Assembly: GCA_965221775.1 (NCBI GenBank)
Contig: CBDCSU010000005.1
Span: 1,248,001-1,312,000, forward strand
Direction of reading: 5' to 3'
DNA: 64,000 nt
Source: Candidatus Latescibacterota bacterium
GTDB lineage: Bacteria > Latescibacterota > UBA2968 > UBA8231
Notes under the pieces: model-generated
The model's database searches: none
The model's input: the letters and a program-made list of their open reading frames with translations, nothing else
What the model was told of the DNA's origin: nothing
Program-made: the position numbers and the translations under genes
In this document: piece by piece, positions 1 to 18,458 of the stretch
How positions within the stretch are numbered: the stretch's first letter is position 1
Layout: each line of letters begins with the position of its first letter

Positions 1-786
1 GAGGTCGTGACTCGCCAGCGGCACCAGCTCCGCCTCCTTGGCCGCCTGCACCCGGCGGCGCAGTTCAGCACACCTCTCCAAGTCGGCGACAGGATCAAGC
101 CTGAAGGGTTCAGCGTCGCTGTCGGTGGGGGTCGCCGACATCTCAACCAGGCCGTAGCGTTCAGGCGGCCCCCAGCACCGCAAGGCTCCTACCTGCGCCA
201 GTGTCTCTGCGAAGGGAAGGCCTGGATGGAGTTCGTCAAGGATCACCAGACAGTCGTTGCCTGCAAGGCCCGCGTGAATCGGCCACATTGTCGGCTTCAC
301 GCCCTGGCCACGGAAGAGCAAGCGGGAGCCGAACTGATCCACGGTGGAGACAGCCACCCATGGTTGATCCGGGCGGTGACTCCACTCGTCCACGGGAACG
401 CCGCCCCGCAAGGCGGCGCATCCCAACGGTTCTCCCGGGCTCAAGGTTTCAAGCCGTTGTCTCACTCTTCGCAGGATCGGCGTGTCGCCTGCCTCTATGC
501 GGTCGAGGATCCGTAGCGCCCGCTTGCATGCCTGATGGACGACGACGCGTCTGTCCACGACGAAGACGATTCGCCGTGGCGCATCTGCGGGCCTGAGGGC
601 AAGGGCAAAGACGGCCACATCGAGCACGGCGGTCTTCCCGGAGCCGGTGGGCAGGTCGATCACCTTCGGCCACTCTCCGCTCTCGAGGACCTGACTCGCC
701 AGACGTTGCTGCCAGGGGAAGGGACTCTGACCGTGCACGTCCTGGAAGAAGAACGGAAAGTGGCCGGGCAGGAGGTCTTCACTCAT
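1..786 (-). CDS. cas3: Type I-G CRISPR-associated helicase Cas3, N-terminal part (runs off window start)
   Basis: Not in the ORF track. Manual translation from ATG 786 (ATGA overlap with csb2 stop) gives MSEDLLPGHFPFFFQDVHGQSPFPWQQRL...LPTGSGKT (Walker A)...PRRIVFVVDRRVVV...STVDQFGSRLLFRG...LVILDELH, typical of I-G Cas3. Confidence 0.93.
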   Translation of the reverse strand, partial: MSEDLLPGHFPFFFQDVHGQSPFPWQQRLASQVLESGEWPKVIDLPTGSGKTAVLDVAVFALALRPADAPRRIVFVVDRRVVVHQACKRALRILDRIEAGDTPILRRVRQRLETLSPGEPLGCAALRGGVPVDEWSHRPDQPWVAVSTVDQFGSRLLFRGQGVKPTMWPIHAGLAGNDCLVILDELHPGLPFAETLAQVGALRCWGPPERYGLVEMSATPTDSDAEPFRLDPVADLERCAELRRRVQAAKEAELVPLASHDL

Positions 787-2318
787 CGAGACTCCGGCAC
801 TGGGCGCATCAGTCCCAGCCCCATGAATCGACCGGCCCCGAGCATCAGTGGCCCCTCTACGGGGTGCTTGAATGTCACCGCTGCGTGAACGAGCTGGCGT
901 CTGACCAGTGTGCCCTCCCGCCCTCTCTGGCTGAATGGCGGATAGCGCCCGGCCGGCGTGGACCCCGCGATGAACGGGCTCAGCGCAATCTCCACTGCCG
1001 AGGGTTCCGGCAATCCGACGTGCACGCAGGCGGCTGCGACGGCCCCCTCGGCCAGTCTCCAGGCCTCGGCTCGCGCACCGACCCTCCCCGCCCTCAGGCT
1101 GCCAGGATGTCTTGGCAGCGCAATGGGCGTCGCCGACACCCACCGCCGGGAAGGACGATGCCAGGCACTTGGCCGCAGGTCGGCCGCGTCGGGAGGCCCG
1201 CGGTGGCGGTCCATGCGGAGTACGCCCTGAGATCCCAGAGTGAGCCTGAGGGGATAGGGCTGCTGGGGAGCCCCCTGCTCCCACCTGCGGACCGCCCGGA
1301 AAAGGGCCCGGCGCGTGTCGTCTCCCAGGGATCTCGGCACGGACAGGGCGATACCGAGCAGACGCGCGTCCCCGCGCTCAGAGCCGATGTTCGGCAGAGG
1401 AAGGAACGCCACATGGGGGTCGCAGGTCGGCTTGCCATCCGGCCTGTGGCCGCTCAGCTCTTCGGGAATCGGATCCTCGGCGTGCTTGAGAGTGGCTCTT
1501 CGCATGGCCGCCGCAGAATCCACTGCTCGTGTAGCTGGAAGGAAGCGGCAGTTCTGCGCGAATGCGAAGACGATCCATTCGCCAAGAGTGTTGGGCTGCA
1601 AGGTTGGCTCATCCTGCACGGTCTCCGCTGTGGAACTGTATCGAACGTCCGTGTATGGCAGGGCTCGGGGCCTGACGCCCTGGTGTCGGAGATACTGCCG
1701 TTGGAGCGCTCCAAGTTGGCCCCGCCTTACAGCGCGCAGGCCATCTGTACCGCGGCCTGGCGTGTAACTGGCGCGAATAGACTCCCGCACCACACGGCAG
1801 GAAACGAGGGAAGAGGAGTGGCCCAGCCGGGCAACTCGGCTGAGAAGGTGGTCCATGGTCTCGCCCATGCCTCCTGGAGCAGCCTCTTCCCAGAGATATG
1901 TAGCCCGGGGCCGGCGGGGAGTCACGGACGGGAAGAACCGCTCCTGGGGGAGAAAGTTCCTGTCCTGTTTGTCCCTGCTGTCTCTTGGCTCAGTCCGATG
2001 GTCCGGGAGTATGCGCATCGATGAAGAGGGGTTCGAGTCGATGATGCGAACATCGTTCACCGGAACGAAATGCGAGACTACCCTGCGCGGCGCGGCTTCC
2101 GACGCGGCGATGGCGGGTGCTCCCTGGGCCTCGAGCCATTCCAGGGCATCGCGTTCCTCGGGATCGCGACCATCCTCGGCCCAGACCGCCACGAGTGCAG
2201 AGAACACACGCGCCGGGTGCGGTGGCCACTCCCCCCGCCGGCGGTCGTTGTGGAACGTGGCCACGTACCGCTCCGTCAGGAAGTTCACTTCGATGCCGAA
2301 ATTCGCCAAGCGAGACAT
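783..2318 (-). CDS. csb2: Type I-G Csb2 (Cas5/Cas6 fusion)
   Basis: N-terminal EWPPHPARVFSALVA motif, WVSATP motif, C-terminal Gly-rich Cas6 loop GPLMLGAGRFMGLG; lies between csb1 and cas3. Confidence 0.93.
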   Translation of the reverse strand: MSRLANFGIEVNFLTERYVATFHNDRRRGEWPPHPARVFSALVAVWAEDGRDPEERDALEWLEAQGAPAIAASEAAPRRVVSHFVPVNDVRIIDSNPSSSMRILPDHRTEPRDSRDKQDRNFLPQERFFPSVTPRRPRATYLWEEAAPGGMGETMDHLLSRVARLGHSSSLVSCRVVRESIRASYTPGRGTDGLRAVRRGQLGALQRQYLRHQGVRPRALPYTDVRYSSTAETVQDEPTLQPNTLGEWIVFAFAQNCRFLPATRAVDSAAAMRRATLKHAEDPIPEELSGHRPDGKPTCDPHVAFLPLPNIGSERGDARLLGIALSVPRSLGDDTRRALFRAVRRWEQGAPQQPYPLRLTLGSQGVLRMDRHRGPPDAADLRPSAWHRPSRRWVSATPIALPRHPGSLRAGRVGARAEAWRLAEGAVAAACVHVGLPEPSAVEIALSPFIAGSTPAGRYPPFSQRGREGTLVRRQLVHAAVTFKHPVEGPLMLGAGRFMGLGLMRPVPESR

Positions 2319-2323
2319 GCTGC

Positions 2324-3577
2324 CTACTCAGGGGAATGTTCGGTGGCCGACAACTTTCTGCTGCGGAGAATCAGTTCGATCAGCTTTGGTGCTGGTGTCA
2401 GGCGAAGGCCACCGGTTTCCCAACCGATTCCGACCGCTTCCGCGCGCTCGGCAGCAGAAGACAGGACTTCGGCAGCCATGCTCTTGTCCAACTGGACGAC
2501 CTCGCTGGCAGAGCCGTCGCGGGAGAGCATGCTGGCCCGTAGCGGGTGGGTTGGAAGGAGGAGACATCGTGACCGCAGGTCGAAGTCCTTCTCGTACTGA
2601 TAGGCAATGGCAGCGACGCCCAATGCTGCAACCGCGGTGCGGGCCGCTGTCTCTGCTTCGCTGTCGAACCCCTTGAACCTCAGGCGGCGAAGTGCCGCGA
2701 AAGAGATAACGGTGGTCTGCCGGGCCTTCGAGATCGTGACGCCGCCAGCCTCGGCGTCTATGGAAGGAACGATGTTCCCGTGGTTGATCTTTGACGGCTG
2801 ACCAGCCTCCCCGCTCATGCTGCCCCGCGAAGCGTATACAGGGTTCCCCTTCTTGTCCTTCTCCGCTGCCTCCGGGTCGTGAGTCCAGACCTCGGCCGGA
2901 TCCTCGCTGTTGAGCACGCGATCCTCCGGCGCAACCCTTTCGATCTGGAGTGGGTCTATGCGGCTTCCCACCTTCTTCCCCACAGCGGCGTCGAAACCGA
3001 CGATTTCCGATACATAGGCGCGTTGGAAACGCGGGCCGAGTCCGCCTTTCGGGCCCGTCGAATCCCACATACCGAACAACAGGGAGGTCGGCGAGTACCG
3101 GAACAGATCGGTAGCATTGCGCGGGGTTGCGTCGGTAATCGCTTGTCCCACATCCGACAGTCGAAACAGCGTTCCGCCGAACAGGCTGTCCCGGAAAATC
3201 GCATCTGCCAGGCGATGCGGCGCTTCGAGGACGGTGACCTTGTCATAGTCCGTTGCGTTCCCGGTCCCAGAGAAGTCCACGTACGGGACCGGGAAGGAGA
3301 GTTCCTCTCGCTCCCACCCCTCCAACAGGGCCAGCTCCGCCCTGTTGGCTTGTGACGCCACGGAGTCCAGCAGGACCGTAATGCTCGTCCTCTCCCCTTG
3401 TCCAACTTGACGCTCCTCAATGGCGTACCGGTGCTCGAGGCGTCCCTCCACCCTGTAAGATGGGGGGAAGACCTTGTCTCCCTCGCCACCAGCAGGCTGC
3501 AATGTCATGCGGGACCGCAAGGCCACCGCGCCGCCGGCGACAGCATCAAACAGGCGATCGAATGTGAGTCGCGACAC
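2324..3577 (-). CDS. csb1: Type I-G Csb1 (Cas7 backbone subunit)
   Basis: Motifs LQPAGG..DKVFPPSY, LLDSVASQANRAE, EAPHRLADA, PTSLLFGMWDS, GSRIDPL, DFDLRSRCLL; start re-assigned to GTG 3577, 6 nt after an AGGAGG RBS. Confidence 0.93.
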   Translation of the reverse strand: MSRLTFDRLFDAVAGGAVALRSRMTLQPAGGEGDKVFPPSYRVEGRLEHRYAIEERQVGQGERTSITVLLDSVASQANRAELALLEGWEREELSFPVPYVDFSGTGNATDYDKVTVLEAPHRLADAIFRDSLFGGTLFRLSDVGQAITDATPRNATDLFRYSPTSLLFGMWDSTGPKGGLGPRFQRAYVSEIVGFDAAVGKKVGSRIDPLQIERVAPEDRVLNSEDPAEVWTHDPEAAEKDKKGNPVYASRGSMSGEAGQPSKINHGNIVPSIDAEAGGVTISKARQTTVISFAALRRLRFKGFDSEAETAARTAVAALGVAAIAYQYEKDFDLRSRCLLLPTHPLRASMLSRDGSASEVVQLDKSMAAEVLSSAAERAEAVGIGWETGGLRLTPAPKLIELILRSRKLSATEHSPE

Positions 3578-3609
3578 CCTCAGCCTCCTGAAAAAGGCTG
3601 TGTGCGGCT

Positions 3610-4110
3610 TCAGGGAGGGCAGGCGCTGGGCGCGCGCCTCCGGGCGCAGGTGTGTGTACTCGCCACTGGAGTGCCCAGCTCCGCCTTTTCCTCGGGTGCA
3701 ATGCTGGCCCGAGCTTTGGCCAGTTGCCGCTTGATGCGTCCCTTCCGGCCTGCCTCCAGGGACCTCGTGCGCTTTTCCGCGCAGACGAGGCATCGCCGGG
3801 CCGCCGGTCCCCTGTGCTCGATAGAGACCCCGCAATCCGCACACTCCCGGCGGCGTCGGCCGAGGGCCAGGGCTCGGATCGTCTCGCGCACGAGACTACG
3901 GACGCGCACCGGCGAGATTCCGTGCCTTGCGGCGATGGCGTCGACTCGGAGCTCCTCCCCCTTGAGGCCGTAGTACTCCGAGAGGATCTGCCGCGCGCGC
4001 TCCGGCAGACCCGCGATCAGATCGAGCGCCCAGGAGCGGATCTCGGCATCGGGTACTCCCTCGTGAAACTGGCTCCACAGGAGTATGCGCAGGGAACGGT
4101 GATGGTTCAC
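3610..4110 (-). CDS. Small sigma-70 region-4-like HTH protein with C-terminal CxxC...CxxC zinc finger
   Basis: LPERARQILSEYYGLKGEELRVDAIAARHGISPVRVRSL resembles the sigma region 4 HTH; CADC...CLVC follows; AAGGAGG RBS 9 nt before GTG; ends 32 nt before csb1. Confidence 0.7.
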   Translation of the reverse strand: MNHHRSLRILLWSQFHEGVPDAEIRSWALDLIAGLPERARQILSEYYGLKGEELRVDAIAARHGISPVRVRSLVRETIRALALGRRRRECADCGVSIEHRGPAARRCLVCAEKRTRSLEAGRKGRIKRQLAKARASIAPEEKAELGTPVASTHTCARRRAPSACPP

Positions 4111-4236
4111 TTCACTTCGCCTCCTTCTGTTTCGTGGCAGAGCCTTCAGCCTCGAGAGAATTCCCCTATCAGCTGGCCGAGACTGCGTGCTTCGATTCCA
4201 GGCGCGTGGGATGGTATGGAAGGCCTGCCTCGAAGA

Positions 4237-4259
4237 GTGATTGATAACACGCTTATACC
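4237..4259. promoter_or_regulatory. Palindromic box 1 (GTGATTGATAACAC) with adjacent minus-strand TATAAG -10-like element
   Basis: The 20-mer ATTGATAACACGCTTATACC (4240-4259) recurs exactly at 4453-4472. Confidence 0.55.
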
Positions 4260-4302
4260 TTCAGAGCTGTCCACAACGATCCTGGTCCCTGAGTTTGAAG
4301 TC

Positions 4303-4388
4303 GGGACAGCAACCCCTCATGCCCGAGTAGCCCACCCGATTCGGGAGGCCGCCCTGTCGGGCAGGAGCCCGGGAGGGGTTGCTGTCCC
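4303..4388. ncRNA. Structured stem-loop element copy 1 (candidate RNA)
   Basis: Perfect 16-bp inverted repeat GGGACAGCAACCCCTC (4303-4318) / GAGGGGTTGCTGTCCC (4373-4388); inner stem TGCCCGA/TCGGGCA (4320-4326/4357-4363). Confidence 0.55.
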
Positions 4389-4449
4389 TTCGAGACGCAC
4401 ACACACAGACACATAACTCACGCAAAGTGGACACTTTCAAGGTTTTTCA

Positions 4450-4472
4450 TTTATTGATAACACGCTTATACC
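4450..4472. promoter_or_regulatory. Palindromic box 2 / repeat copy with TG-n-TATAAG extended -10-like element on the minus strand
   Basis: 4453-4472 is an exact 20-bp copy of 4240-4259. Confidence 0.55.
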
Positions 4473-4617
4473 ATTCATGCTGGCACCTGGCCAGTCAGGA
4501 GACCAGAAGGGCTCGATGCTCGACTCTGCAAACTGTACATAGGGCCGATTGTGAACCATTGCAAGAGCAGGACCCACGAGCGTGATCCCCTTGTATCGAT
4601 CCTCCTTTGAACGAATC

Positions 4618-4708
4618 GGGATAGCAGCCCCTCACTCCTACAGGAACCTCCCGGAGGAGGGACCGAGAGACCCTACTGGGTTTTGAGCCCGTGAGGGGTT
4701 GCTATCCC
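4618..4708. ncRNA. Structured stem-loop element copy 2 (candidate RNA)
   Basis: 18-bp stem GGGATAGCAGCCCCTCAC (4618-4635) / GTGAGGGGTTGCTATCCC (4691-4708) with one G-U pair; compensatory C:G to T:A change versus copy 1. Confidence 0.55.
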
Positions 4709-4797
4709 TCTCATCGCTACGATAGCAATTGCTGTGGGAGGTATGCAACTAACAATTACCCAGAGAGCGGCCATTGATTGCAGGTGGGCTTCGGAGA

Positions 4798-4811
4798 GTG
4801 TTTGATAACAC
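4798..4811. promoter_or_regulatory. Palindromic box 3 GTGTT-TGAT-AACAC
   Basis: Perfect 5-bp arms; 4792-4811 matches 4231-4250 at 18/20. Confidence 0.5.
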
Positions 4812-5024
4812 AATTGGTGAATTGCTACCTGTGGGTTCATCTTTTGGGGTGTGAGCGTGTGCTCAAGGACTTTTCCGCCTGGGCCTTGCGCGCTCGGCGT
4901 ACTGAGACCGGGCGACCCGGACCGCTGCCGAGATGGCATCCCGAGTCGGCGGAATCTCTCTGATGGGGAAAAACCTGCGAGAGACGCCCATCCACCGGGG
5001 ATGGCGAGGGGCGCCGGCCGGCCC

Positions 5025-6983
5025 TCAGCCCGGGCGGTACTCCAGCACCACCCGGTTCTCCGGCCCCCGCAGGCCCATGGTGTTCACCGCCCGCGCCCGC
5101 AGGCGGTTGCGCCCCGGGCGCAGCTCCCACTCGAAGACGGGACCGCTCGCCTCCCACTTCCCCCGGTCCAGGCTGACCTCGAAGCGGTCCAGGTGGGGGA
5201 TGGGGCCGGAGAGCCGCACCGTCAGCGCCGCCGCCGTCTCCGTGTCCTGCAGGTCGATCCGCGTGCGGTTCAGGTCCCAGTAGAAGTCCTCGGGCCGGTT
5301 GGTCTGCAGCGAGTACTCGGGATACCTCGGGTCGAGGCTGTCCGTCCACCACAAGTGGCCGTCCCAGTGGTACTGGTCCATCCCCTGCTCCAGCTCCTGC
5401 GGCTCGGGGCGGTAGAGGTGGTCGTTGCGCAACGGCATGCCGAAGCGCTGGTAGAGCTGAGCGAACATCGTCCGGAGCCGCTCGTCGGGGACGGGCGGCG
5501 GCGGCACGAACTCCAGGTCCTCCATCCGGCCGGCGGCGCCGAGGCGGTGCATCTCCAAGGCGTTGATCGGCACGCCGGCCTCCTCGTACTGGAAGGCGAC
5601 CTCGTGGCCGGGCAGGAGGCCCGGGTCCTGGAGGATCCACTTGCCGTGCTCGTCGGACCAGATCTCCGCCAGGCAGTGGTGGTCGACGATCACGGGCCGG
5701 GCGTGGTAGCCGAGGGAGCCGGCGCACTGGCTGAAGACGGCGGCGTAGTGGGTGCACATGCCCAGGGCCAGGTTCTGCGGCGCCAGCTCCAGGATCTCGA
5801 GGGCGTCCCACTGGGGGCAGTAGTTGTACTCGTTGTCGTTCCACCCCTCCCACTGCCGGCGGACCCACTGGCGCAGCAGGGCGAACCTCTCCATCTCGGT
5901 CTGCCCGGGGGCCACGACCTCCTCCAGGCGGTACTTCTCGCGCAGGTGGCGCATGCGCGGGTGGTGCGGGTCGGCGTAGTCGAAGGGGTAGGAGGAGACG
6001 GCCAGGTCGTTCTCCGGCGCCGAGATCACCTCGATCCGGCGGCGGTTCGCCCCGACGGCGCGCCCGGAGGCCTCGATGGTGACGCTCTTCAACAGCGGCG
6101 TGACGGCGGGATCGCCGCTGGAGAGGGTTGCCCGCCATTGCAAGAACCGCGCCCCGGGCAAGGGCTCCCCCGAATCGGCGGCGCGCCAGGAGGTCCACTC
6201 GTCCGAAGCGTACAACGCCGTCGAGCCGGATCTCACCTCGAAGCGCACCGAGGTCCTCGGCGGCATTTCGGTAGCGGCCGACAGGCGCAGGGCCTTCAGG
6301 TCAAGGCCGGGAGCGACCGCCTCCTCCGCGGCCAGGTCGATGACAGGAGAGGTGGCCACACCCTCCCGCGGATGGCCGCGGACCCTCAGGCGGACGACGT
6401 ATTCCCCCGAGAGGTCGTTGTCCGCTCCGAGCATGTCCCCCTTCCACTCGCCGCGGCCCTCGAGGCGCTTGAAGCTGTTGCGGCCGGGCTCGTCGGCGTC
6501 GATGACCAGCGACCCGGCGCCGGAGAAGACCAGCTCGTTGCGGCCCGGGCGCAGCCAGCGGCCGGGGATCGTCTCACGGTCCCAGCCGCCGGTGAGCATC
6601 CTCTCGAGGTCCTGCACGTGGCGGATCTCGTGCCCGTTGACCGAGATGAGCAGGGGCTCCTCCTCGGTGCCGCCGCCCCCGTGGAACAGGACCTCCGCCG
6701 ACTCCACCGCCGCCGGCAGGTCGAAGAGCTTCTTCGCCTCCACGGCGGGCGTCAGGCTCTCACGGATCTTGGAGCTGCGCGCCATGGCGTCGGCGATCAG
6801 CCACGTCGGCGCCAGGCAGAGCCCGCCCTCGTCGGCGCAGTAGCCGGTGAAGCGGTCGCGGGTGCAGCCGGCGAGGGCTTCGCCTTCGAGGGTGGTCTTC
6901 CACTCGGTCATGGGTGGTGCGGCGGAGGTGGTGCCGGCGGACACCAGCAGCGCGGCCAGGGCGAGGCGGGCGAGGCGGGGCAC
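5025..6983 (-). CDS. Secreted transglutaminase-like domain protein
   Basis: Signal peptide after GTG 6983 (AAGGAGG RBS); Cys-His-Asp-like triad GMCTHYA...HHCLAEIW...WILQDP. Confidence 0.7.
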   Translation of the reverse strand: MPRLARLALAALLVSAGTTSAAPPMTEWKTTLEGEALAGCTRDRFTGYCADEGGLCLAPTWLIADAMARSSKIRESLTPAVEAKKLFDLPAAVESAEVLFHGGGGTEEEPLLISVNGHEIRHVQDLERMLTGGWDRETIPGRWLRPGRNELVFSGAGSLVIDADEPGRNSFKRLEGRGEWKGDMLGADNDLSGEYVVRLRVRGHPREGVATSPVIDLAAEEAVAPGLDLKALRLSAATEMPPRTSVRFEVRSGSTALYASDEWTSWRAADSGEPLPGARFLQWRATLSSGDPAVTPLLKSVTIEASGRAVGANRRRIEVISAPENDLAVSSYPFDYADPHHPRMRHLREKYRLEEVVAPGQTEMERFALLRQWVRRQWEGWNDNEYNYCPQWDALEILELAPQNLALGMCTHYAAVFSQCAGSLGYHARPVIVDHHCLAEIWSDEHGKWILQDPGLLPGHEVAFQYEEAGVPINALEMHRLGAAGRMEDLEFVPPPPVPDERLRTMFAQLYQRFGMPLRNDHLYRPEPQELEQGMDQYHWDGHLWWTDSLDPRYPEYSLQTNRPEDFYWDLNRTRIDLQDTETAAALTVRLSGPIPHLDRFEVSLDRGKWEASGPVFEWELRPGRNRLRARAVNTMGLRGPENRVVLEYRPG

Positions 6984-16733: not shown

Positions 16734-18458
16734 CTATGTTGACGAGCCAAGCAGGTTACGCAGCTTGGCGAGAATTCGGTCTCGTCGTGCCTCATAGAAC
16801 ACAATGAAGCCAGGGATATCCTCCGGGATCTCCTCAAGGTTTCCAAGATCATGAAGGGATACATACTCTATCGCTTTTGCCTTGGAATCAAAGGCACTAC
16901 TGATCCACTCCGTGGGCATCTTATCGCGCTTGCTCTGATTCTCGTTTCCAGCGAGAAGTTGCAGGTTTGGCAGGCGGTTCGCACAGTCCTGGAAGGTTTC
17001 GATGTCATCTTCGGCTACGCCCGCCCGCCTCAGTTTGCTGGGCGAGAACCGGCTCTTCGGAAATACGTGGTCGATATGGAAGTGGTTGTTTCGGAGATCC
17101 ACGAACGGGTACAACAAGGAAAGCAGCCCGAACGTGCGGTCTCCAGACTCAGCGAGGTCTTGGAGCTCTTCATCGACAAATGTCAGGATCTTGCCCTGGT
17201 CACGCATTGCTTCTTCCATACGGGCAACCGGGAACGCTTCACTGCCGTGCTCATCGATTACGCTCCGAAGCCGAGTGAGGAGCGTATCCAGACCCGCGCC
17301 CCAGATACCACGCTTAAGCAGGGATCGTATCAGCCAGCTTCGGATGGCCTCTCGGTCCTCTCGGTGTAGATCCCCGGACATCTTTCGCTGGTATACGTAG
17401 TGAGCGATGGGCAGAACCGCGTTGTCTGCCGTAAGGCTCTGCCGAGAAAAGCCGAAGTCTACGATCAGTCCCACAGCTGTGACGATCGCGTGCGTGATAT
17501 GATCCCATCTCTCTTCCAGACGTTGCATGTTGCGAGTGTTGAAGTTGGTTACCCTGAATCCGACACTCTGTATGCCAGCGAGCATTAGGCCTGCCTTCAG
17601 CACGAAGTCCCTGGAAAAGTTGAAGCCATCTCCGAGCCGGTTGATTTGGTCCACTGTACTGTGGATTGCCTCTCGGGCATCCCGTGTCCACTGGGCGATG
17701 GAGATGCTCATAAGTATGTCCGAATTGCTCAGGGGCGTACCGCCGCTGTTCGTGCGGACGAAGATGTCCAATACCTTGCCGACATCTTGTCCCTCTTCCT
17801 CATAGTAAGCGATGACTGGATTGGTGTGCACCATGCGATGAAGCCCATCGAGGACATCTAAGGCTTGGCTTTCGTCGCCCAGGTTCCTCTCGATCAAGAA
17901 TCGATGGAGATCGATGCCTCTGGCACTAAGTATGTCGCGGACACGATACCAATGGTGTGTTTTGTCGTTGTCCTTCGCCTCGTCCTCTGTGAGGAATTGG
18001 AAATCGTACTTCAATCCGTCTTCGTTCTCCTCCGCATCGGCAAGGATATTCAAATACAGATGTCTCTCGGGATAAGCATGGTCACTCTTTGCCGAGTAGT
18101 ATGGGAGTTTGTAGGCATAGCTCCCTCGCAAACCTATGTTCAGAGCGGTCAACCGCTGTTGGCCGTCCAATACCGCGACGATCTGTTCACGTGTGATCCG
18201 GCCTGTTCTCTGCAAACGCCGGTTGTCCTTCTCGTGATAGTGGAGCATGAAATCGTAGAACCTGTACTTCATGATGTCACGTTGGACCTTCCAGAATAGG
18301 AAGGACCCTATTGGATATCCGCGCATCAGGCTGTCAAAGAGCCTCTCAATCTGGTCAGTGGACCAGACCACCTCGCGCTGAATGTCGGGCAGCACGTACT
18401 TGCGCTCTTCGATAGAGCGCAGGGCCGTCATGATCGTGATAGGAATATGAAACGCCAT
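16734..18458 (-). CDS. DUF262 + C-terminal HNH (DUF1524-like) GmrSD-family restriction protein
   Basis: LPDIQREVVW, LFDSLMRGYPIG, LDGQQRLT, FVRTNSGG; HIDHVFP...NLQLL...NQSK. Confidence 0.88.
   Translation of the reverse strand: MAFHIPITIMTALRSIEERKYVLPDIQREVVWSTDQIERLFDSLMRGYPIGSFLFWKVQRDIMKYRFYDFMLHYHEKDNRRLQRTGRITREQIVAVLDGQQRLTALNIGLRGSYAYKLPYYSAKSDHAYPERHLYLNILADAEENEDGLKYDFQFLTEDEAKDNDKTHHWYRVRDILSARGIDLHRFLIERNLGDESQALDVLDGLHRMVHTNPVIAYYEEEGQDVGKVLDIFVRTNSGGTPLSNSDILMSISIAQWTRDAREAIHSTVDQINRLGDGFNFSRDFVLKAGLMLAGIQSVGFRVTNFNTRNMQRLEERWDHITHAIVTAVGLIVDFGFSRQSLTADNAVLPIAHYVYQRKMSGDLHREDREAIRSWLIRSLLKRGIWGAGLDTLLTRLRSVIDEHGSEAFPVARMEEAMRDQGKILTFVDEELQDLAESGDRTFGLLSLLYPFVDLRNNHFHIDHVFPKSRFSPSKLRRAGVAEDDIETFQDCANRLPNLQLLAGNENQSKRDKMPTEWISSAFDSKAKAIEYVSLHDLGNLEEIPEDIPGFIVFYEARRDRILAKLRNLLGSST

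What the first reader, a model, noticed from the sequence alone, without database searches (positions are those of the whole stretch)
3610..4110. Stand-alone sigma-70 region-4-like HTH plus C4 zinc finger as first gene of a Cascade operon
Seen: a region-4-like segment LPERARQILSEYYGL..EELRVDAIAARHGISPVRVR followed by CADC-x14-CLVC and a basic helix, with a strong RBS and a 32-nt gap to csb1. No sigma region 2 is present, so it is not a complete sigma factor. Known: region 4 binds -35 DNA and the RNA polymerase beta-flap; familiar cas regulators are WYL, CARF-HTH or XRE types. Inference: a new cas-operon regulator, or a Cascade accessory that links RNA-guided binding to RNA polymerase.
Basis: partly seen in the sequence, partly recalled or inferred. 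Interest (0 to 1): 0.7.

Follow-up and report, generated by a model that had tools for sequence, protein, structure and literature searches.

The report
Orphan sigma-region-4 zinc-ribbon gene heading cas operon
A small, one-of-a-kind DNA-binding protein, built from the promoter-binding end of a sigma factor plus a zinc ribbon, sits just in front of a horizontally acquired type I-G CRISPR operon; it is most likely a local regulator picked up from a mobile element, not a conserved CRISPR part.

Summary
Window 3610-4110 (minus strand) is a real 166-aa gene with a GGAGG ribosome-binding site. It ends 32 nt before csb1/cas7g. An alignment-based AlphaFold model matches solved sigma region 4 domains.

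The gene lies inside an ~8.3-kb island that two same-genus genomes lack: 4-repeat array, short cas8g, cas3g, csb2, csb1, this gene, and an ~800-bp structured leader. Its codon composition is foreign, like that of the cas genes. No terminator-like site was found before csb1.

It is an orphan, however. None of 80 related csb1 loci carries it, and DNA homology between five aligned loci starts at the csb1 ribosome-binding site. No protein among 1.84 billion representatives shares the two-domain architecture.

The separate domains resemble phage-type stand-alone sigma-4 proteins and zinc-ribbon repeats of HNH and integrase-linked mobile-element proteins.

Best reading (about 0.45): a strain-specific transcription factor of mobile-element origin, co-transcribed with the cas operon. 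Nothing supports a Cascade-to-RNA-polymerase adaptor. Interest is modest.

The parts
3610..4110 (-). Gene X: 166-aa protein with a sigma region 4 HTH, a C4 zinc ribbon, a basic helix and a disordered tail
   Evidence: ORF and translation; Pfam PF04545 at 34.8 bits against a cut-off of 24.1; the same product is in public gene calls
4120..4124 (-). Ribosome-binding site GGAGG, 9 nt before the GTG start of X
   Evidence: read from the sequence
3859..4059 (-). Sigma region 4 domain (residues ~18-84; helices 22-32, 37-47, 56-63, 67-82)
   Evidence: Pfam and NCBIfam; PDB phmmer FliA region 4, E 0.12; AlphaFold model; Foldseek top hits are all sigma region 4, e.g. 4g6d_A with TM 0.75 by target and rmsd 1.4 A over 53 columns
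3778..3846 (-). C4 zinc ribbon (residues 89-111; C90, C93, C107, C110)
   Evidence: translation; invariant in 5 of 5 cluster members; 70% identical to the N-terminus of L128:4998-5426; the same motif is repeated in HNH proteins P0005, P0011, P0013 and P0020; Pfam zf-dskA_traR only 11.1 bits, below the cut-off
3706..3777 (-). Long basic helix after the zinc ribbon (residues ~112-135)
   Evidence: AlphaFold model, block pLDDT 87-93
3613..3675 (-). Low-confidence C-terminal tail (residues ~146-166). A 1-nt insertion here in a related assembly fuses X in frame to csb1.
   Evidence: pLDDT below 50 for residues 148-166; P0029, 595 aa
3578..3609 (-). 32-nt gap between X and csb1, holding the csb1 ribosome-binding site (3584-3588). 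No terminator-like site on this strand.
   Evidence: sequence; scan
2324..3577 (-). csb1 / cas7g
   Evidence: PF09617 E 7.4e-49; TIGR02570
783..2318 (-). csb2 (cas5-cas6 fusion)
   Evidence: TIGR02165, 285 bits
1..786 (-). 5' part of cas3g. Its ATG overlaps the csb2 stop (ATGA). The gene runs on beyond the left edge of the window and is followed there by short cas8g and a 4-repeat array.
   Evidence: TIGR02621 at 709.9 bits, full length, with the HD domain TIGR01596; cas8g NF049934 and PADLOC Cas8g; array
4111..4928 (.). ~800-bp non-coding leader of the island (GC ~55%). It has two ~90-nt hairpins (4303-4388, 4618-4708) and three copies of a 20-bp box (4240-4259 and 4453-4472 identical; 4777-4811 degenerate).
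   Evidence: no Rfam hit at E up to 0.1; no other copy in the genome
4929..5015 (.). Right edge of the island. Homology to same-genus genomes starts here.

Best explanation
X is a small sequence-specific DNA-binding protein assembled from two parts of mobile-element type. One is a stand-alone sigma-70 region 4 helix-turn-helix. The other is a C4 zinc ribbon followed by a basic helix. It lies at the 5' end of an ~8.3-kb horizontally acquired type I-G interference island that has no adaptation genes. It most likely acts as a transcription factor on the promoter region in the ~800-bp leader upstream of it. Because csb1-csb2-cas3-cas8g follow with no terminator, that would also set the expression of the cas genes in this strain. 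Shown: the domains, the position, island membership, foreign codon composition, and the lack of conservation elsewhere. Inferred: DNA binding, autoregulation, co-transcription, and the leader boxes as possible operators.
For: Domains: PF04545 is above its cut-off. Foldseek top hits are all sigma region 4. The zinc-ribbon cysteines are invariant in 5 of 5 cluster members.

Operon position: the gap to csb1 is 32 nt, X has its own ribosome-binding site, and no terminator-like site was found on the minus strand of 3400-5100.

Same island: in G002 and G004 (same genus) the flanks L003:14711 and window ~5016 are directly adjacent. X therefore lies in the insertion together with the cas genes.

Same foreign composition: GC3 is 0.78 for X and 0.70-0.74 for the cas genes, against 0.91-0.95 for three host genes.

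Stability: contigs of two DNA runs from other studies carry the whole of window 1-5400 at about 99.3% identity. Four of 5 cluster members keep the 166-aa frame at 98-99% identity.

Weak hint of expression: contigs of one metatranscriptome library lie on csb2, on csb1 and on X (3721-4158, reaching 48 nt 5' of the start codon).

The leader holds two identical 20-bp boxes and a third degenerate one, which are candidate operators.

Precedent: sigma-type regulators of CRISPR loci are described in the abstracts shown in the search listing for PMC6061681 and PMC11506125.
Against: There is no conservation. 0 of 80 related csb1 loci hold a relative (best tblastn E 0.19). Homology among the five aligned loci begins at the csb1 ribosome-binding site. 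No orthologue was found in 60 related genomes, nor with either of the two wide protein searches.

The position upstream of csb1 is occupied by unrelated genes elsewhere (transposases, toxin-antitoxin genes, housekeeping genes, other cas genes). Only 1 of 142 upstream ORFs carries Sigma70_r4.

No promoter-like site was found by the sigma-70 consensus scan, and no operator has been shown.

The RNA evidence comes from low-depth contigs (word depth 2.3-3.8 per contig) in a library where DNA carry-over cannot be excluded.

In the recognition helix only 3 of 13 positions match the host-type sigma factors in alignment A5, so the DNA target is unknown.
Confidence: 0.45

Rival explanations
1. Hitch-hiker. 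X is a leftover regulator or DNA-binding gene of a phage or integrative element that recombined next to the cas cassette. It may still bind DNA, but it has no role in CRISPR function. Read-through into csb1 would be incidental.
For: X is unique to this locus. Its parts look like mobile-element proteins. The nearest Atlas cluster is viral with Sigma70_r4, score 0.89, a lead only. phrog_351 matches at 1.7e-6. Many small phage proteins named Sigma70_r4 appear in BFVD. Zinc-ribbon relatives stand in HNH proteins and next to an integrase and XRE genes. The island is a compositional mosaic: X 69% GC, leader 55%, cas genes 62-66%. The cassette works without X in other hosts: 74 of 80 loci have the same four-gene order with no X.
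Against: The tight 32-nt spacing without a terminator makes transcriptional coupling hard to avoid. The frame is kept intact in 4 of 5 cluster members and in two independent metagenome assemblies. No other mobile-element genes (integrase, transposase) are left in the island.
Confidence: 0.3
2. RNA polymerase-directed factor. The sigma-4 domain docks on the beta-flap like a sigma factor's region 4, and the zinc ribbon and basic helix bind DNA or another polymerase site. X would then act as a sigma-4 mimic or appropriator that redirects or blocks host polymerase. In the boldest form it would bring polymerase to Cascade-bound DNA.
For: The fold is that of sigma domain 4, whose known partners are the beta-flap tip and -35 DNA (established knowledge of sigma factors). 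There are weak, sub-threshold likenesses of the zinc ribbon to DksA/TraR-type fingers: PF01258 E 0.41, TIGR02419 E 0.047, phrog_54 E 0.34. RNA-guided transcription by dCas12f with an ECF sigma is a published precedent (PMC13472631, abstract and passages read). A second, unrelated sigma-like gene is translationally coupled to csb1 in L114.
Against: Cas3g here is full length with its HD nuclease domain, so the effector is a degrading one and not a nuclease-dead binder. X is absent from all 80 related loci. The three spacers match nothing else in the host genome (best other match 18 nt with 1 mismatch), so no host promoter target is evident. Two sigma-like neighbours in 81 loci, one of them the index case, is about what sigma-rich genomes would give by chance.
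Confidence: 0.1
3. Decaying fragment. X is the C-terminal remnant of a once complete sigma factor gene and no longer has a function.
For: It aligns only to the last third of sigma models. It has no region 2. The tail is low-confidence and is frameshifted in one related assembly.
Against: It has its own strong ribosome-binding site and start. No region 2 remnant is visible upstream: only short ORFs of 59 aa or less in 4111-4928. The added zinc ribbon and helix are well predicted (pLDDT 80-93). The domain part (residues 1-144) is intact in 5 of 5 cluster members.
Confidence: 0.08
4. Structural Cascade subunit, for example a stand-in for the Cas11-like part that the short Cas8g lacks.
For: Cas8g here is the short ~308-aa form. 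Passages read in the type I-G structure preprint (10.1101/2022.08.08.503147) describe a predicted Cas11-like helical C-terminal part in its Cas8g. X is mostly helical. One assembly encodes an X::Csb1 fusion frame.
Against: 74 of 80 loci carry the same short-cas8g cassette without X. X is homologous to sigma region 4, not to Cas11. The fusion is a single 1-nt insertion in one contig and leaves the csb1 start intact.
Confidence: 0.03

Closest known systems
Region 4 (domain 4) of sigma-70 family factors, e.g. the sigma A domain 4 structures 4g6d_A, 1ku3 and 1rio_H
   Same: Same fold and family signature: PF04545 above its cut-off; TM 0.74-0.75 by target and rmsd 1.4-1.6 A over 53-54 columns.
   Different: No region 2 or 3, so it cannot be a sigma factor. 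The recognition helix is diverged (3 of 13 positions shared with host-type sigma factors in A5). It carries a C-terminal zinc ribbon and a basic helix.
Small stand-alone Sigma70_r4 proteins of phages (BFVD entries named 'Sigma70_r4 domain containing protein' or 'Sigma-70, region 4', 50-136 aa)
   Same: Single sigma-4 domain, small size, mobile-element flavour.
   Different: Matches are weak (E 0.006-0.3). None was shown to carry the zinc ribbon. X is chromosomal and heads a cas operon.
Zinc-ribbon repeats (C-x-D-C-G ... R-G ... R-C-x-x-C) of HNH-endonuclease proteins and of the 142-aa protein at L128:4998-5426
   Same: Same motif; 70% identity over residues 88-117 to L128.
   Different: Those proteins have no sigma-4 domain and lie in integrase/XRE or HNH contexts. 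No Pfam family covers the motif; DZR scores are below the cut-off.
ECF sigma regulators of CRISPR-Cas (DdvS/DdvA of Myxococcus xanthus, PMC6061681 and PMC11506125; abstracts shown in the search listing only)
   Same: A sigma-family protein that controls cas expression.
   Different: DdvS is a complete sigma factor with an anti-sigma partner. X has only region 4 and no partner gene.
dCas12f with ECF sigma: RNA-guided transcription (PMC13472631; abstract and passages read)
   Same: Genetic linkage of a sigma-type protein with an RNA-guided DNA binder.
   Different: There the linkage is conserved, the effector is nuclease-dead and the sigma is complete. Here the linkage is a singleton, Cas3g has its HD domain and X lacks region 2.

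Membership tests
Sigma-70 family sigma factor | Region 2 (core binding, -10 recognition) | tested here: not met
   No Sigma70_r2 hit at E up to 1. Only ~30 residues precede region 4. TIGR02937 scores 27.8 bits against a cut-off of 42.9 and matches only positions 105-161 of 165.
Sigma-70 family sigma factor | Region 4 helix-turn-helix | tested here: met
   PF04545 at 34.8 bits against 24.1; Foldseek hits to sigma domain 4.
DksA/TraR C4 zinc-finger proteins | Family profile match, and four cysteines in CxxC...CxxC | tested here: not met
   The four cysteines are present, but PF01258 scores 11.1 bits against 24.9 and TIGR02419 scores 14.3 against 59.7.
CRISPR-associated (cas-linked) accessory or regulator gene | Recurrent presence next to cas loci in different genomes | tested here: not met
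   0 of 80 related csb1 loci. 0 PADLOC families. Outside its own 5-member cluster, none of the 25 other representative hits is a single-copy match covering both domains.
Type I-G (I-U) CRISPR-Cas, for the operon X heads | Cas7g/Csb1, Csb2, Cas3g with HD, Cas8g | tested here: met
   TIGR02570, TIGR02165, TIGR02621 (709.9 bits) with TIGR01596, and NF049934 / PADLOC Cas8g.
Type I-G (I-U) CRISPR-Cas, for the operon X heads | Adaptation module (cas1, cas2, cas4) and a regular array | tested here: not met
   No further cas family was found among the six neighbouring ORFs scanned beside the island, and the ORF lists show no gene besides X between cas8g and the host flank. No PF01867 match in the whole genome, which is 96.8% complete. 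cas2 and cas4 were not searched genome-wide. The array has only 4 degenerate repeats and 3 spacers.
Transcription factor acting on the island leader | Specific binding to operator DNA and an effect on transcription | not testable with these tools
   Only candidate boxes were seen.

The most novel reading that the evidence does not exclude
X is a portable sigma-4 mimic. Its sigma-4 domain takes the beta-flap site of host RNA polymerase, while the zinc ribbon and basic helix bind island DNA. A horizontally transferred, adaptation-less type I-G cassette would then bring its own means of being transcribed in a foreign host. In the boldest form, X would couple polymerase to Cascade-bound DNA.
Probability: 0.06. 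Interest if true: 0.7.

Novelty: new variant of a known kind. Interest (0 to 1): 0.3.

Why it matters
If X does control the operon, it would show how a widely transferred CRISPR interference cassette gets wired into a new host, by capturing a small regulator of mobile-element type at its 5' end. The domain pair (sigma region 4 plus this zinc ribbon) has no second example in the libraries searched, so it adds one architecture to the little-studied class of stand-alone sigma-4 proteins. As it stands, it is a strain-specific orphan beside an otherwise ordinary type I-G system. It offers no general insight into CRISPR biology.

Tried and rejected
1. Complex prediction of X residues 15-90 with the host RpoB flap segment (L130:2482-2931) gave no verdict: score 0.10 against a mark of 0.32. 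It counts neither for nor against binding.

2. The single-sequence AlphaFold model was poor (pLDDT 59.6). It was replaced by the alignment-based model.

3. Searches for orthologues:
- Word-seeded search of 5.8 billion proteins: only its own cluster.
- HMMER against 1.84 billion representatives: 26 hits at E up to 1e-3, one of them X itself; the others examined were multi-repeat sigma-4 proteins, multi-repeat zinc-ribbon proteins or an ordinary sigma factor.
- 60 related genomes: only region 4 of ordinary sigma factors.
- Metagenome contigs: one zinc-ribbon-only hit, L128.
- Earlier findings of this scan: nothing relevant.

4. The metagenome scan for relatives of the L114 sigma-like protein found none. 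Whether a sigma-csb1 pairing is conserved in that lineage stays open.

5. X against the L114 sigma-like protein, and L115 against L114: no significant similarity.

6. tRNA genes or known RNA families in the leader: none. The only Rfam row is a sub-threshold trypanosomatid snoRNA match inside X, taken as chance.

7. The promoter consensus scan found nothing. The organism's promoter type may not be covered.

8. Spacer self-targets in the host genome or in fetched loci: none beyond chance-length matches.

9. Parts of the operon without RNA contig cover in runs X15 and X20 are not evidence of silence.

10. Literature searches for a published link between a sigma-type or stand-alone sigma-4 protein and type I-G or CRISPR neighbourhoods found only the precedents cited.

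Full report

Yes. The minus strand of window 3610-4110 holds a 166-aa ORF that starts at a GTG, preceded at 9 nt by GGAGG.
- Pfam places Sigma70_r4 (PF04545) on residues 32-81 at E 1.1e-8 and 34.8 bits, above the curated cut-off of 24.1. No region 2 or 3 is found.
- NCBIfam sigma models match only with their last third.
- The cysteines are C90, C93, C107 and C110, so the motif is CxxC-x13-CxxC.
- The stop codon is 32 nt from the GTG of csb1, which has its own GGAGG.
- Third-position GC is 0.78 in this frame, against 0.71 and 0.57 in the other two frames of the strand.
- The same 166-aa product stands in public gene calls from four contigs.

The gene is therefore real.

**2. Structure**

A single-sequence AlphaFold model was poor (pLDDT 59.6). 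With a 15-row alignment (A5) the model reached pLDDT 72.5.
- Residues ~20-140 lie mostly at 70-93.
- It shows four helices of a sigma-4 domain, a short beta zinc ribbon at 89-107, a long helix at 108-135, and a tail below 50.
- Foldseek against the PDB returned sigma region 4 structures as all the top hits. Examples are S. aureus sigma A domain 4 (4g6d_A: TM 0.75 by target, rmsd 1.4 A over 53 columns), 1ku3 and 1rio_H.
- The E-values are weak (0.04-0.2) because the domain is short; probabilities are about 1.
- In A5 the recognition helix of X shares only 3 of 13 positions with the host-type sigma factors, so its DNA target need not be a -35 box.

**3. What surrounds it**

Downstream on the same strand lie, in order:
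- csb1/cas7g and csb2;
- cas3g, full length with its HD domain (709.9 bits);
- a short cas8g of 308 aa (NF049934 and PADLOC Cas8g);
- directly after that, four degenerate 36-nt repeats with three spacers.

The six neighbouring ORFs scanned beside the island gave no further cas family, and the whole genome (96.8% complete) has no Cas1 match. The spacers match nothing else in the genome.

Upstream of X is about 800 bp without a credible ORF, at 55% GC. It contains two very stable ~90-nt hairpins (-62 and -58 kcal/mol, z about -5) and three copies of a 20-bp box, two of them identical. It has no Rfam or tRNA match and no second copy in the genome.

**4. The island**

In two same-genus genomes (G002, G004) the host flanks L003:14711 and window ~5016 are directly adjacent. 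Everything between them is therefore a strain-specific island of ~8.3 kb: array, cas8g, cas3g, csb2, csb1, X and the leader.
- GC3 of three host genes is 0.91-0.95. The cas genes have 0.70-0.74 and X has 0.78, so X is as foreign as the cas genes.
- Contigs of two DNA runs from other studies, labelled sponge metagenome, carry the whole of window 1-5400 in one piece, with 38 and 40 differing letters.
- One metatranscriptome library has contigs on csb2 (1905-2288), csb1 (3052-3330) and X (3721-4158, reaching 48 nt beyond the start codon). A second has one on the leader (4433-4638).
- Depth is low and DNA carry-over cannot be excluded, so this is only a hint of expression.

**5. Is X linked to cas genes elsewhere?**

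No.
- The csb1 of this island has relatives of 62-83% identity in MAGs labelled as many different phyla, and even one archaeon.
- 74 of the 80 fetched loci share the order csb1-csb2-cas3-short cas8g. The six exceptions are mostly cut contigs.
- Many of these loci also have large arrays about 9 kb downstream.
- None of the 80 loci encodes a relative of X within the fetched flanks (best tblastn E 0.19).
- In an alignment of five loci, DNA homology begins at the csb1 ribosome-binding site. Only L037 and L038 share about 100 nt further upstream.
- The two closest loci (82-83% Csb1 identity, another family of the same class) differ upstream. One has a 63-aa ORF with only sub-threshold winged-helix matches; the other has a transposase.
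- 142 candidate upstream ORFs were scanned (at most two per locus, same strand, ending within 700 nt of csb1). One carried Sigma70_r4. The rest that matched were transposases, toxin-antitoxin genes, housekeeping genes or other cas genes.
- That one case is L114, a Planctomycetia MAG with Csb1 only 46% identical. Its 198-aa ECF-like gene ends 1 nt before the csb1 ATG. It is not detectably similar to X beyond the family, and no relatives of it were found.
- Two sigma-like neighbours in 81 loci, one of them the index case, is not clearly more than sigma-rich genomes give by chance.

**6. Where do the parts come from?**

X has no full-length relative.
- The word-seeded search of 5.8 billion proteins gave only its own 5-member cluster, at 98-99% identity.
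- HMMER over 1.84 billion representatives gave 26 hits at E up to 1e-3. One is X itself. The ones examined are proteins with many sigma-4 repeats, proteins with several copies of the same zinc-ribbon motif (four of them carrying HNH nuclease domains), or an ordinary sigma factor.
- The best zinc-ribbon match is 70% identical over residues 88-117. It is the N-terminus of a 142-aa protein that lies about 1.4 kb from a phage-type integrase gene, with XRE-type genes on either side.
- PHROGs gives a phage sigma family at 1.7e-6.
- The nearest Atlas cluster is viral with Sigma70_r4, score 0.89, a lead only.
- BFVD holds many small phage proteins named as Sigma70_r4-only.
- Likeness of the zinc ribbon to DksA/TraR fingers is below every cut-off.

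**7. Reading**

The best-supported account is this. X is a chimeric small DNA-binding protein of mobile-element origin. It was joined to this copy of a widely transferred type I-G cassette and is co-transcribed with it. It plausibly acts on the leader upstream of itself.

This is inference from anatomy, not from conservation. I put it at about 0.45. The near rival is that X is a bystander from a lost mobile element (0.3). An RNA polymerase-directed role is allowed by homology but has no positive evidence (0.1). The published dCas12f-sigma system differs in being conserved, nuclease-dead and built on a complete sigma factor (PMC13472631, abstract and passages read). A decaying fragment (0.08) or a Cascade subunit (0.03) is unlikely.

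**8. Novelty and score**

The CRISPR system is a known type I-G form. Stand-alone sigma-4 proteins are a known, poorly studied kind. The sigma-4 plus zinc-ribbon pairing is new but is a singleton. I file it as a new variant of a known kind, with interest 0.3.

Noticed in passing
L037-L102 (csb1 at ~10001 in most loci): The csb1 of this island is 62-83% identical to copies in MAGs labelled as many different phyla (Latescibacterota, Chloroflexota, Thermodesulfobacteriota, Gammaproteobacteria, Acidimicrobiia, Gemmatimonadota, Spirochaetia, Binatia and others) and one Nitrosopumilaceae archaeon. Several of the taxon names are sponge-associated. This points to very wide recent horizontal spread of one type I-G cassette (csb1-csb2-cas3-short cas8g in 74 of 80 loci).
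   Followed up: partly
window 4240-4811: The non-coding leader holds two ~90-nt hairpins with shared stems but different loops (4303-4388 and 4618-4708; -62 and -58 kcal/mol, z about -5). It also holds three copies of a 20-bp box (two identical at 4240-4259 and 4453-4472, one degenerate at 4777-4811). There is no Rfam match and no other copy in the genome. One contig of an RNA library lies on 4433-4638.
   Followed up: partly
L003:14878-15131 (left of the window, same island): A mini-array of four degenerate repeats and three spacers lies directly after the cas8g stop. No Cas1 match exists anywhere in the genome, and the spacers have no match in the host genome. This is an interference-only type I-G island with fixed guides of unknown target.
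   Followed up: partly
window ~3675 (X residue ~145); protein P0029: One related assembly has a 1-nt insertion that fuses X residues 1-144 in frame, through the gap, to full-length Csb1 (595 aa). The csb1 frame is open back to window 3844. The two DNA runs laid here list no insertion or deletion in that stretch. This could be a sequencing error or a strain variant.
   Followed up: partly
L114:1582-2178 and 2180-3445: In a Planctomycetia MAG, a 198-aa ECF-like sigma gene (Sigma70_r4 and r4_2 above their cut-offs, region 2 weak) ends 1 nt before the csb1 ATG of a complete type I-G locus with cas4/1, cas2 and an array. It is unrelated to X beyond the family.
   Followed up: partly
L003:14711 / window ~5016; window 4929-5015: G002 and G004 have an empty site. 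G006 and G007 carry other short inserts at the same place, bounded by copies of a ~80-bp host element that also occurs at L003:12672-12749. This intergenic spot may be a recurrent insertion site.
   Followed up: partly
window 16734-18458 (minus strand): A 574-aa GmrSD-type restriction endonuclease (GmrSD_N E 6e-31, GmrSD_C E 5.7e-6) lies ~12 kb from the island: a second defence gene in the neighbourhood.
   Followed up: no
L043:3261-3527, L050:4127-4468, L015:3338-3670: A similar small ORF (conserved stretch RHVANSMAMEGEPVDE; weak DUF4172 likeness) lies just upstream of csb1 in two Rhodothermales loci, and about 600 nt upstream of csb1 in the closest Latescibacterota locus. It may be a recurrent neighbour of this cassette.
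   Followed up: no
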